NCBI GenBank assembly: GCA_051362555.1
Contig: CM120644.1
Span: 13,290,567-13,354,566, forward strand
DNA from: Lingula anatina
Lineage: Eukaryota > Animalia > Brachiopoda
Direction: 5' to 3'
Length of the DNA stretch: 64,000 bases
Shown here: piece by piece, positions 7,593 through 10,500 of the stretch
How positions within the stretch are numbered: position 1 is the first letter of the stretch
Layout: each line of letters begins with the position of its first letter
Position numbers and translations under genes: made by a program
Notes under the pieces: generated by a model
Told to the model about the DNA's origin: nothing
Databases searched by the model: none
What the model saw: only the letters and a program-made list of their open reading frames with translations

Positions 7593-10500
7593 TCAGAGAA
7601 TAATACATTTCTTTTTCTTGTCCTTTTTGTTTTTCTTGCCATTACTTTGCTTGGCATTTTCCATCTTTCTAGATCGGATTGCACGCATCAAGTCAAAGAA
7701 CACCTGAAAAAAAAAAAGAGAAAAAGAAGAGGGATTATGGATGATACTTATAAAACAGGTATTGCCATATGAATATACAGTTAGCATGAGAAGCAAAAGG
7801 ATACATTTATCTCCATTTTTCTTCTTCACTTTATATACTATAACCCATCACTAACTTGAAAACAAATCCCATCCACAAAAAATTAATGTTTACATATTTT
7901 ATTTCATTATTTTCTTATTTTTTGCCAATTAAATCCCTTCTTTGACTGCGGGGATAATTGACCAAATAAAAAATCATGCACAATGATCCATGGATTAATT
8001 TTGAACAGCATTTCGGTTTGTATGGCTGTCACAGATGCATCATTCTGCATACTTCCCTTTTTTTAATAAGGAGAAACAAACGTGCACTCTTCTAATAAAA
8101 AAACATATTAATATAAGCTAATGCAATCCATTGTTAAACTGGAACCCAGAAAACAACAAAATAAAAGCATTATTCAAATCTGAATTTGCGTAATGTGTTG
8201 ACAATTTTACAAATTTGTACCGAATAACCAGTTATGTATGTTTGCATTGAATTTGGTTAGAATCTGAATTTGCGTAATGTGTTGACAATTTTACAAATTA
8301 GTACTGAATAACCAGTTATGACTGTTTGCATTGAATTTGGTTAGAAATGGGTTCAACTTTGTTTTTTAATTTTTCATAAGTAAATCTTTGAATTCACTGT
8401 TCAGGTTGAAGAGAATATTGTTGGGAAGCCTATTCTGTTGTTTTATGAGTCCTAGTGTTGCAGGAAGGAACTCACATCACAAATTCAAGCATGAAATTAA
8501 AACTGCAAAACAAACACCGCTAAGGTAAGGTTTCACTGCTCACTGTACTACATTCAAGGAGGTAATACTACTACCAGACATGAGCAAAATAAAATAAAAT
8601 AAAATAAAATAAAAAACTCTGAACATTTAAAATGGATCCCAACACCTAGCCTTGACAAATCTCAGGAACCATCAGAATTGAATTAAAAAACGGGGAATTC
8701 AGCTTTTCCAAGGAAAAAAGCTCATGTCTGCTGCTACACACTATACTTAGTTACATCACCTTGCACAGAGCACACACAGAGGAATTTTTAGGAAATAAGC
8801 CAAGTAAATAAAATTAAATGACAAAGTAAATTAATAAATAAAACAGTAGCTACCATGCACTACCCTTCACATTAAGATGCACTTTTTCTTCTTCTTCTTC
8901 TTTTCTCCCGGGACTTTTTTCTTTCCTCCACCTTTCTTAGAGGCCCCCACTGGAGGCTCAGCAAGTTTTTTGTCTCTTGTTATTGCAAGCAGCAAAAAGA
9001 ATGCCTACGGTTGGGTTAATAGAGAAAACCAAACTGAAAACCTATCTTTAAAGACACACTGAAACAGATAAATGCTGTTTCATGCCAGAAAACTACATTT
9101 GCATCTTGAGTTTTTTTTTTTTTTTTTTTGGAAGTATAACAGATTTGGGGTCCCCCTTTCTTGGTATGATTTTCAGATTCTTAATACTGAGAGTTCAATA
9201 TTTTTCTATGAAAAAAATCAATTTCTTACATTTTTTTTTTTTTTTTGAAATGCTCGTTTCTTTTCCTTCCATGGTATCCTAGATTTTAAAAGCCTATTTG
9301 TAAATGATCAACAACAATTTTCTGCAAATATTATGAATTATTTGCCTCATGCCATTTTCCTATACATTTCTCTAATGCACATATTATGTCTTTAAAGGAC
9401 CTATGACCCAACACTCAAGAAGCTTATAATGTGTTTTCCAATGACTGAATGGGGATCATCCGAGAGAGCTTAGAAGAAGGTTTCTTGGACAGTGAAACCC
9501 TACATGACTATAAAATGAATAAGAATACATGAATGGCATTCAACAAGCAAACAAAAGTGACAGGTAATCATGACAGATTCGTGCCATTGTACACTGGACA
9601 GAAATTCAACAGAACTGAAGAGATAAACAACCACTGCGCTGCCTAGTTTAAGATACTTTCTGACTCCACTTTCCTGTTAATCATAATTTGAAGATAATTT
9701 GCAAGACACTTGGCTAACCCAGAGGATCCCCATTGTCAGGTCTACCCAATTACCAGACTCAGCACCGAATGATCCCAAATTCACCCGTAGATCGGACCAC
9801 ACTATCCGTTTTCAAGGTGTGCGTCAGTACGCATTTCACAGTATCATACCCCAGAACAAATTTTGAGATGAGATGCACTACTTTCCGACCCCGCTCAGAA
9901 TCATCGAAAACAGGTAGTGTGGTCCGATATACTGGAGAATTCGGGATCATTCGGTGCTGAGTCTGGTAGCTGGGTAGGCCCGACTGTGCATCATTTGTGT
10001 TAGATATGTGGGCAATGGTAAATGGAGCCTTGACTATTGTAACCATTCTCAACTCGTTCATATCAAGTAGCCCCCATGACACTTTCCAAATCATTTCAGT
10101 TCCAATATTTTAGCAGACTGACTAAACAAGACACATGAAGATCTACGGTGCCCTGTGAGTGTGTGTGTGTCCATGTAGCTTTAGTATTCAAATCCAAATA
10201 TGAGCAAATCACTCTACATTTTTGAAATTACTTTTTTAAATTGTCAACAAGAGGTTATACAGTGATAATATTGCATATAATCTGCAGGTGCAAAAAGTCA
10301 AGACAAAGGCCATCACCATTTCAACACATGCTAACCACAAAGGATAGATGTCACTACCAGCTACAACATATATTACTAAAACAAGACATGCCAAAACCAA
10401 GCTGCGCGACTTGGGTTATATGCATACAATAAGGACAAAGCTTTGTTTTGCTTAGTACTGAAACAACAAAATGAAGCCATATGCCTGTAGTGTTAAAAAG

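What the first reader, a model, noticed from the sequence alone, without database searches (positions are those of the whole stretch)
8867..9004. Hidden alternative last exon gives Ral a KRAS4B-like, farnesyl-type tail (K7-CILM) instead of CIIL
Seen: inside the last Ral intron is an in-phase 138-nt exon, missed by the ORF track, encoding [45 protein letters not shown]. It starts at the same helix-5 position as the downstream exon [13 protein letters not shown]...KKKKCIIL*. Known: CAAX ending in Leu directs geranylgeranylation (typical of RalA/RalB), Met favours farnesylation, and KRAS makes 4A/4B through alternative C-terminal exons. Vertebrates diversify Ral tails through two genes. Inference: this single Ral gene switches prenyl type and membrane targeting by splicing, convergent with KRAS4A/4B. 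I cannot tell whether this is already annotated in related species.
Basis: partly seen in the sequence, partly recalled or inferred. Interest (0 to 1): 0.85.

Follow-up and report, generated by a model that had tools for sequence, protein, structure and literature searches.

The report
Swappable lipid tails on Ral GTPase
The Ral signalling gene of the lamp shell Lingula splices in a second tail exon, abundant in some RNA samples and nearly absent in others, which likely swaps the lipid that anchors the protein to membranes; database records of other worms, molluscs and mayflies show similar swappable tails.

Summary
The exon is real. D1 (9004-8867, - strand, 138 nt, phase 0) lies in the last intron of Lingula anatina Ral. 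It joins the preceding exon in 215 and 210 reads of two RNA runs and makes roughly 80% of tail signal there, versus about 2-4% in two other runs. It is missing from the Lingula models I could see. It is probably not a last exon with its own 3' end: depth falls about 20-fold just past the stop, so it likely splices on to the downstream exon or UTR, like KRAS exon 4A (junction not seen). The prenyl switch is inferred. In yeast screens CIIL is a canonical GGTase-I target and CILM is not, but human enzymes accept CVLM by both routes. Both tails are polybasic, so the lipid logic differs from KRAS4A/4B. The wider result: 20 named annelid, nemertean, mollusc and mayfly species have database Ral forms with an identical G domain and a second tail. 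All 20 canonical tails end in Leu; 12 of 20 alternative sets end in Met/Gln/Ser, and 14 of 20 add a second cysteine. I found no paper describing this.

The parts
16131..16241 (-). Ral coding exon A (start codon, P-loop)
   Evidence: Boundaries; matches the N-terminus of RefSeq XP_013397611.1 = P0003
15387..15595 (-). Ral coding exon B (switch I/II)
   Evidence: AG/GT boundaries and frame
10811..10985 (-). Ral coding exon C, last shared exon; phase-0 donor AAG|GTAGGT
   Evidence: 100% identical to Lingula anatina Ral-A X2; its end is the loose-end consensus at D1
9005..9027 (-). Splice acceptor of D1 (pyrimidine tract + CCGTAG), weaker than that of D2 (14 versus 20 of 20 pyrimidines)
   Evidence: used in 215 and 210 reads
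8867..9004 (-). Alternative tail exon D1: helix 5, Pro/Gly linker, K7, CILM, stop (45 aa; predicted 210-aa isoform)
   Evidence: not among the Lingula models
8882..8902 (-). Seven lysine codons (polybasic run; an AAG repeat at DNA level, where laid reads appear to be cut)
   Evidence: Sequence; depth profile
8867..8881 (-). CAAX codons CILM plus stop
   Evidence: Genomic sequence; reads across these codons were not individually shown
8849..8864 (-). Candidate weak donors 3 and 13 nt after the D1 stop (AGG|GTAGTG, ATG|GTAGCT), followed by a U-rich tract
   Evidence: 5 and 6 of 9 consensus matches, against 7-8 for the gene's own donors; use inferred, not seen
7593..7703 (-). Canonical tail exon D2 ending CIIL-stop (36 aa; 201-aa isoform X2)
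   Evidence: Equals the tail of P0003; covered in 4 of 4 runs
5750..7592 (-). 3' UTR after D2, about 1.8 kb; AATAAA at 6111 and 5784; possible extra acceptor at 7553
   Evidence: Depth (3' end approximate); signals

Best explanation
Lingula Ral splices exon C to a second tail exon, D1, in some RNA samples and hardly in others, replacing the CIIL tail by a K7-CILM tail that is likely farnesylated instead of geranylgeranylated and would hold Ral less tightly on membranes. Shown: the exon, the C-to-D1 junction, the strong difference between runs, the similarity of D1 to D2, and second tails at the same boundary in 20 other named species. Inferred steps: (a) D1 arose by tandem duplication of the last coding exon, probably before brachiopods and annelids split; (b) D1 carries its own stop and uses a weak donor just after it to join D2 or the shared 3' UTR, close enough to the stop to avoid nonsense-mediated decay (the 50-nt rule is recalled), as KRAS exon 4A does; (c) its weaker acceptor makes inclusion depend on tissue- or stage-specific splicing factors; (d) Met at X with Leu at a2 routes the protein to farnesyltransferase, giving a farnesyl-plus-polylysine anchor that calmodulin could extract and PDE-delta-type carriers could shuttle, as described for KRAS4B, while D2-Ral stays more stably anchored. 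The G domain is unchanged, so effectors would be the same and only location and membrane residence would differ.
For: Junction in 215 (X1) and 210 (X3) reads. Mean D1 depth is 183 and 194 there, against 1.65 (X4) and 0.46 (X7), while D2 depth at 7671 is 47, 55, 47 and 63. Chance control 2 of 3,293. D1 versus D2 DNA alignment scores 70, reached by 7 of 1,000 codon shuffles. Among 133 distinct tails, D1's best three matches are annelid-type alternative tails (91, 87 for Owenia, 85 for Capitella), above its own D2 (70). D1 scores 29.9 bits on an annelid-type profile and 7.4 on a canonical profile. The common D1 read variant (46 of 178 and 82 of 199 reads) is synonymous. Yeast GGTase-I screen, 37 C E-score: CIIL 0.014 and CILM 0.91, where below 0.2 marks canonical targets (PMC11304957). 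Yeast FTase heat-map score: CILM 4.59, cutoff 3 (PMC10320760). In 20 named species with identical G-domain cores, 20 of 20 canonical tails end in L and 12 of 20 have an alternative ending M/Q/S; abalone has the same polybasic + CxLM design. A Biomphalaria gene model chains the alternative tail before the canonical one, the same order as here (P0280). KRAS 4A mRNA keeps 4B untranslated behind a stop in 4A (PMC5945503).
Against: The 3' junction of D1 was not seen: the tool listed no joints and dropped rows at repeats. The CILM-stop end therefore rests on the genome; donors at 8883 or 8871 joined to D2 would end the protein in CSLT. Human FTase and GGTase-I both modify the close motif CVLM, and human FTase also modifies CIIL in yeast (PMC11152559); CIIL also passes the yeast FTase cutoff (3.65). 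So the switch may be partial. All 16 of 16 annelid-type tails in my profile end in Leu, so Met is not conserved in D1's closest sequence relatives. Both D1-positive runs come from one study, so tissue, library and population are confounded, and X7 reads are more diverged (146 of 192 at 95-99%). A review reports that engineered farnesylated RalA/RalB rescue cells from GGTase-I inhibitors (PMC9139244), so prenyl type alone may change little. D1 changes conserved helix-5 residues, and folding was not tested. No protein evidence. 19 of 222 and 7 of 244 reads carry an extra base in an A-run at 8965, which would shift the frame (probably slippage).
Confidence: 0.6

Rival explanations
1. D1 is a real regulated tail, but what matters is the linker, helix 5 and the UTR context, not prenyl type: CILM is geranylgeranylated or dual-modified in the animal, and the Met is lineage-specific drift.
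For: 16 of 16 annelid-type tails keep Leu; Owenia, both Octopus species and Patella have polybasic alternative tails ending in L; CVLM is a substrate of both human enzymes; polybasic CVIM is cross-prenylated.
Against: CILM is not de-enriched in the yeast GGTase-I screen, whereas CIIL and CVIM are; M/Q/S endings recur in nemerteans, oysters, gastropods and mayflies while 20 of 20 canonical tails keep L.
Confidence: 0.25
2. D1 is a true alternative last exon with its own short 3' UTR and poly(A) site, chosen by alternative polyadenylation.
For: Low read depth continues past the stop (14 and 18.6 in 8778-8891; 6.3 and 9.9 in 8664-8777); a U-rich tract follows the stop; candidate donors are weak; no D1-to-D2 joint was listed; D2 coding depth (47, 55) is lower than D1 depth.
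Against: Depth 45 nt past the stop is about 5% of D1 depth; no AATAAA until 7903 and no ATTAAA until 8370; the D2 UTR is 3-7 times deeper near 7070-7520 in D1-positive X1 than in X4 at equal D2 coding depth, and depth rises between 7559 and 7497 only in D1-positive runs (21 to 42, 15 to 40, versus 10 to 5 and 68 to 60).
Confidence: 0.2
3. D1 is spliced out before its own CAAX and joins D2 in a shifted frame, giving a K-rich tail ending CSLT, or it acts mainly as a switch that lowers normal Ral.
For: Laid D1 reads stop around 8885-8890, at the lysine repeat; donors at 8883 and 8871 score 6 of 9 and both give CSLT-stop on D2.
Against: The tool cuts reads at repeats; an intact CAAX-stop in the exon's own frame matches all homologous tails; high steady-state D1 depth argues against decay.
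Confidence: 0.08
4. D1 is a dead duplicate or a chance frame with no expression.
For: Not in the Lingula models; no close protein match; nearly absent in 2 of 4 runs.
Against: 425 junction reads in two runs; homologous tails in relatives; 2 of 3,293 chance control.
Confidence: 0.02

Closest known systems
KRAS4A / KRAS4B alternative fourth exons (vertebrates)
   Same: Two final coding exons that start in helix 5 and supply different hypervariable tails; the added exon lies upstream and holds its own stop (PMC9882654, PMC5945503); the ratio varies between tissues (PMC7680328). D1's farnesyl-type CAAX with a lysine run resembles the 4B tail.
   Different: KRAS4A and 4B are both farnesylated and differ in palmitate versus polybasic signal; the Lingula tails are both polybasic and differ in the X residue (predicted prenyl type). 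Exon 4A is attributed to an NRAS exon insertion; D1 looks like a duplicate of Ral's own last exon. Independent origin.
CDC42u / CDC42b alternative C-termini
   Same: One gene, alternative C-terminal exons, different lipidation, tissue-restricted second form with two cysteines (PMC9772827). Many relatives' alternative Ral tails have a second Cys (14 of 20 species).
   Different: CDC42 swaps only 10 residues; Ral swaps helix 5 and the whole tail (36 versus 45 aa). Lingula D1 has no second Cys.
Vertebrate RalA / RalB paralogues
   Same: Near-identical G domains with divergent tails that set localisation (PMC9139244).
   Different: Two genes, both geranylgeranylated; here one locus and a predicted change of prenyl type.
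Automatically annotated Ral isoforms of other protostomes (Owenia, Lineus, Tubulanus, oysters, Haliotis, Physella, Biomphalaria, Octopus, Cloeon and others)
   Same: Identical core up to the same boundary, then a second (in oysters a third) CAAX tail.
   Different: Most are weakly charged with a second Cys, or polybasic with Leu; of the 20 species only Haliotis cracherodii X1 shares polybasic + CxLM. These are database predictions; I saw no experimental paper on them.

Membership tests
Ral subfamily of Ras GTPases | Ras-family G domain | tested here: met
   Pfam Ras PF00071, E 9.8e-59, on P0003
Ral subfamily of Ras GTPases | Closest sequences are Ral proteins | tested here: met
   Exon C is 100% identical to RefSeq Ral-A X2 of Lingula anatina and 83-91% to other Rals
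Ral subfamily of Ras GTPases | Geranylgeranyl-type CAAX ending in Leu | tested here: inconclusive
   Met by D2 (CIIL), not by D1 (CILM); lipid not measured
Tandem duplicated alternative exons | Adjacent homologous exons in the same phase, alternatively joined to one upstream donor | tested here: met
   Both phase 0; DNA similarity reached by 7 of 1,000 shuffles; C-to-D1 reads; C-to-D2 from the RefSeq model, its junction row not shown
KRAS4A/4B-type tail splicing | Upstream exon with its own stop is spliced on to the downstream exon, which becomes UTR | tested here: inconclusive
   Depth falls about 20-fold after the stop, but no joint was listed; rows at repeats were dropped
KRAS4A/4B-type tail splicing | Isoform ratio differs between tissues or stages | tested here: inconclusive
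   About 80% versus 2-4% between runs, but tissues are unknown and both high runs share one study
KRAS4A/4B-type tail splicing | Same prenyl group, different second signal (palmitate versus polybasic) | tested here: not met
   Both tails polybasic (+9, +8), no extra Cys, different X residue
CDC42b-type dual-cysteine tail | Second cysteine next to the CAAX cysteine | tested here: not met
   Absent in D1; present within three residues in alternative tails of 14 of 20 other species
Farnesylated CAAX proteins | CAAX accepted by FTase and poor for GGTase-I | tested here: inconclusive
   Published yeast screens favour it for CILM; human enzymes both take CVLM; CILM has no hit in that paper's main text
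Farnesylated CAAX proteins | Farnesyl group shown on the protein in vivo | not testable with these tools
   Needs mass spectrometry or labelling

The most novel reading that the evidence does not exclude
Across protostomes (brachiopods, annelids, nemerteans, molluscs, insects) Ral carries a regulated splice switch, kept or re-evolved for over 500 million years, that swaps the geranylgeranyl-polybasic anchor for farnesyl-polybasic or farnesyl-palmitoyl anchors. One Ral gene thus covers the KRAS4B-like, HRAS-like and classic Ral targeting modes that vertebrates spread over several genes, and studies of invertebrate Ral have overlooked the second isoform.
Probability: 0.35. Interest if true: 0.75.

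Novelty: new variant of a known kind. Interest (0 to 1): 0.58.

Why it matters
[quoted passage not shown] Protostome Ral would be a third case, and one where splicing is predicted to change the prenyl group itself. That paper proposes that a shift from geranylgeranyl to farnesyl was an important step for vertebrate RAS. Ral offers repeated natural versions of that shift on an identical G domain, so the question of what prenyl type does can be tested in several lineages. In practice, Ral constructs and knock-downs in molluscs, worms or insects may cover only one isoform.

Tried and rejected
No whole genome was held, so Ral copy number and exon order in relatives could not be read from DNA. The run index listed no RNA holder; the 9 runs came by species label, and 4 of 9 were laid. 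Exon C was outside the stretch laid, so junctions appear only as loose ends. A search with D1 alone for longer proteins gave 13 candidates and none scored (weak evidence). Lingula RefSeq X1 is not D1 but a 170-aa read-through into the intron. A third tail exon in the window was sought and not found. A single ancient origin of all alternative tails is not supported: the tail tree has 43 columns and only 2 of 32 branches starred; gastropod alternative tails nest among canonical ones; the mayfly alternative tail's best matches are canonical arthropod tails. The regex split of tails misfiled several canonical tails, so its tally was dropped in favour of the species-paired count. No RNA structure around D1 (z +1.98). 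Earlier scan findings: none. Falsetti 2007 (PMC2169159) was not held. Literature searches showed no paper on alternative Ral tails in invertebrates. I saw listings only, plus passages of the two invertebrate papers that mention Ral isoforms, neither of which describes it. Subscription journals, FlyBase and UniProt curation were not searchable. I recall, from no call, that Drosophila Rala has a second annotated isoform, so curated annotation may already exist there.

Full report
Observation. The gene lies on the - strand with coding exons A 16241-16131, B 15595-15387, C 10985-10811 and two candidate tail exons, D1 9004-8867 and D2 7703-7593 (the script used a D2 start one base short, corrected from its motif table). 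Both tail exons are phase 0 and follow YAG acceptors with 14 and 20 pyrimidines in 20 bases. Of 3,293 YAG sites in the window, only these two open a 30-60 codon frame ending in a CAAX-like motif and stop. Exon C is 100% identical to RefSeq Ral-A isoform X2 of Lingula anatina, P0003, whose tail is D2; so the window is that locus. The Lingula cluster has 4 members: X2, a 170-aa intron read-through (X1), an N-terminally longer D2 form, and a Mya fragment. D1 is in none, and a search with D1 alone found nothing (weak).

RNA. Nine raw-read runs with the same species label were listed; 4 were laid on 5700-9100, with 6-25% of each run read. At 9006, 215 reads of X1 and 210 of X3 run off with a consensus equal to the end of exon C (checked), so C-to-D1 splicing is shown. 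Mean depth over 8892-9005 is 183 (X1), 194 (X3), 1.65 (X4) and 0.46 (X7), while depth in D2 at 7671 is 47, 55, 47 and 63. As a rough ratio D1 makes about 80% of tail signal in X1 and X3 and about 2-4% in X4 and X7. X1 and X3 share a study, tissues are unknown, and X7 is more diverged from the window, so regulation by tissue or stage is inferred. In the stranded runs, first mates lie almost only on +, consistent with a - strand RNA. The one common variant in D1 is synonymous; two rare ones change residues; an extra base in an A-run appears in 19 of 222 and 7 of 244 reads.

Where D1 ends is not shown. The tool listed no joints and reported dropping gaps, joints and loose ends at repeats, which probably include the lysine-codon repeat and the D2 pyrimidine tract; no C-to-D2 row appears either. 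Depth at 8822 is 11 and 9, about 5% of D1 depth, and falls to 0-2 by 8500. The nearest poly(A) hexamers are at 8370, 8067 and 7903. Weak donors lie 3 and 13 nt after the stop. At equal D2 coding depth, the proximal UTR is 3-7 times deeper in X1 than in X4, and depth rises between 7559 and 7497 only in the D1-positive runs, near an AG at 7553. This suggests that D1 joins the shared UTR. It is indirect and compares different libraries. Two other donors (8883, 8871) would end the protein in CSLT on D2, so CILM-stop rests on the genome and on homology.

Relatives. Three protein searches and three cluster look-ups returned P0002-P0297 (each search lists only its best 120). From these I picked by hand 20 named species with a canonical tail and at least one other CAAX tail; in all, the core from the P-loop strand to the exon C boundary is identical. 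They are 1 annelid, 2 nemerteans, 2 octopuses, 7 bivalves (5 oysters), 6 gastropods and 2 mayflies, so they are not independent. Ostrea edulis (canonical form not retrieved) and Lymnaea (one form) were left out. All 20 canonical tails end in Leu with net +6 to +8. Alternative tails end in Met, Gln or Ser in 12 of 20 species and carry a second Cys within three residues of the CAAX Cys in 14 of 20. Haliotis cracherodii X1 has a polybasic CVLM tail, the same design as D1. A Biomphalaria model chains the alternative tail before the canonical one. Many other named species gave one tail only (Aplysia, chelicerates, most insects, Branchiostoma, vertebrates); that is not proof of absence. D1 is closest to annelid-type alternative tails, but those end in Leu in 16 of 16 cases. 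The tail tree puts D1 apart from D2 and needs 2 label changes against about 12 in shuffles, with weak support. An old duplication shared with annelids is likely; one origin for all alternative tails is not shown.

Prenylation. PMC9882654 (passages) gives the rule that Leu or Phe at X directs geranylgeranylation. In the yeast GGTase-I screen of all 8,000 CXXX (PMC11304957; passages and supplementary rows) canonical targets score below 0.2 at 37 C: CIIL 0.014, CTIL 0, CVIM 0.045, but CILM 0.91. In the FTase screen (PMC10320760; passages and supplementary rows) CILM scores 4.59 and CIIL 3.65, both above the cutoff of 3. Against a clean switch, PMC11152559 (passages) finds CVLM modified by both human enzymes, and PMC9139244 (passages) reports that farnesylated RalA/RalB keep function under GGTase-I inhibitors. 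The yeast data use a Ydj1 reporter without a polybasic stretch. I put predominant farnesylation of D1 at about 0.65.

Mechanism. Shown: sample-dependent joining of exon C to D1. Inferred: D1 is a stop-bearing cassette like KRAS 4A (PMC5945503, passages); it yields a 210-aa Ral with the same G domain, an altered helix 5, a longer Pro/Gly linker and a farnesyl-polylysine anchor. By analogy with KRAS4B, that anchor would allow extraction by calcium-calmodulin and recycling by PDE-delta (PMC7216078, passages; it notes that geranylgeranylated RalA/B also bind calmodulin). In relatives the same slot more often yields a weakly charged, two-cysteine tail that would depend on palmitoylation, as in CDC42b (PMC9772827, passages).

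Comparison and novelty. It works like KRAS4A/4B in layout but fails that system's lipid feature, and D1 lacks the CDC42b second cysteine. It is a tandem duplicated alternative exon of a Ral gene. PMC9882654 names only KRAS and CDC42 among 167 human members and has no hit for Ral in its main text. Searches (listings), and passages of 10.1101/537969 and 10.1101/381707, showed no description of alternative invertebrate Ral tails; PMC7680328 was read in passages for KRAS. The library lacks most subscription papers and curated databases. Verdict: a real exon missing from the Lingula models seen, part of a wider pattern that sits in public annotation but appears undescribed; new variant of a known kind; interest 0.58.

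Noticed in passing
P0237, P0242 (Neocloeon, Cloeon RefSeq X2, 197 aa): Mayfly Ral has a short alternative tail ending CCVIM, similar in length and ending to the oyster 197-aa form (CCVVM), although its best alignment scores are to canonical arthropod tails.
   Followed up: partly
P0094/P0097/P0101 and other oysters: Oysters have three Ral tails on one core: canonical polybasic, short CC-V-x-M/L, and a long 54-aa CC tail.
   Followed up: partly
P0009 (Capitella), P0044 (Paralvinella), P0200 (Helobdella): For these annelids only the alternative-type tail was retrieved; the canonical exon may be unannotated or lost.
   Followed up: no
window 10811-10793, - strand: RefSeq X1 of Lingula reads through the exon C donor to a stop after five codons, giving a 170-aa Ral without CAAX; similar truncated models occur in other species. 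Probably intron retention or an annotation artefact.
   Followed up: no
window about 21181 and 20685-20580, - strand: Upstream exons used by a longer Lingula model with an 84-aa N-terminal extension (P0124); many relatives also have alternative N-terminal extensions, several with cysteines near the start.
   Followed up: partly
window 8645-8690: Short dispersed repeat in the intron; reads from other loci pile up with varied loose ends.
   Followed up: no
window 8177-8346: Two-copy 84-bp tandem repeat between D1 and D2, 95% alike.
   Followed up: no
window 30499-34719, + strand: Single open frame of 1,407 aa, low complexity, no Pfam match.
   Followed up: partly
   Followed up: partly
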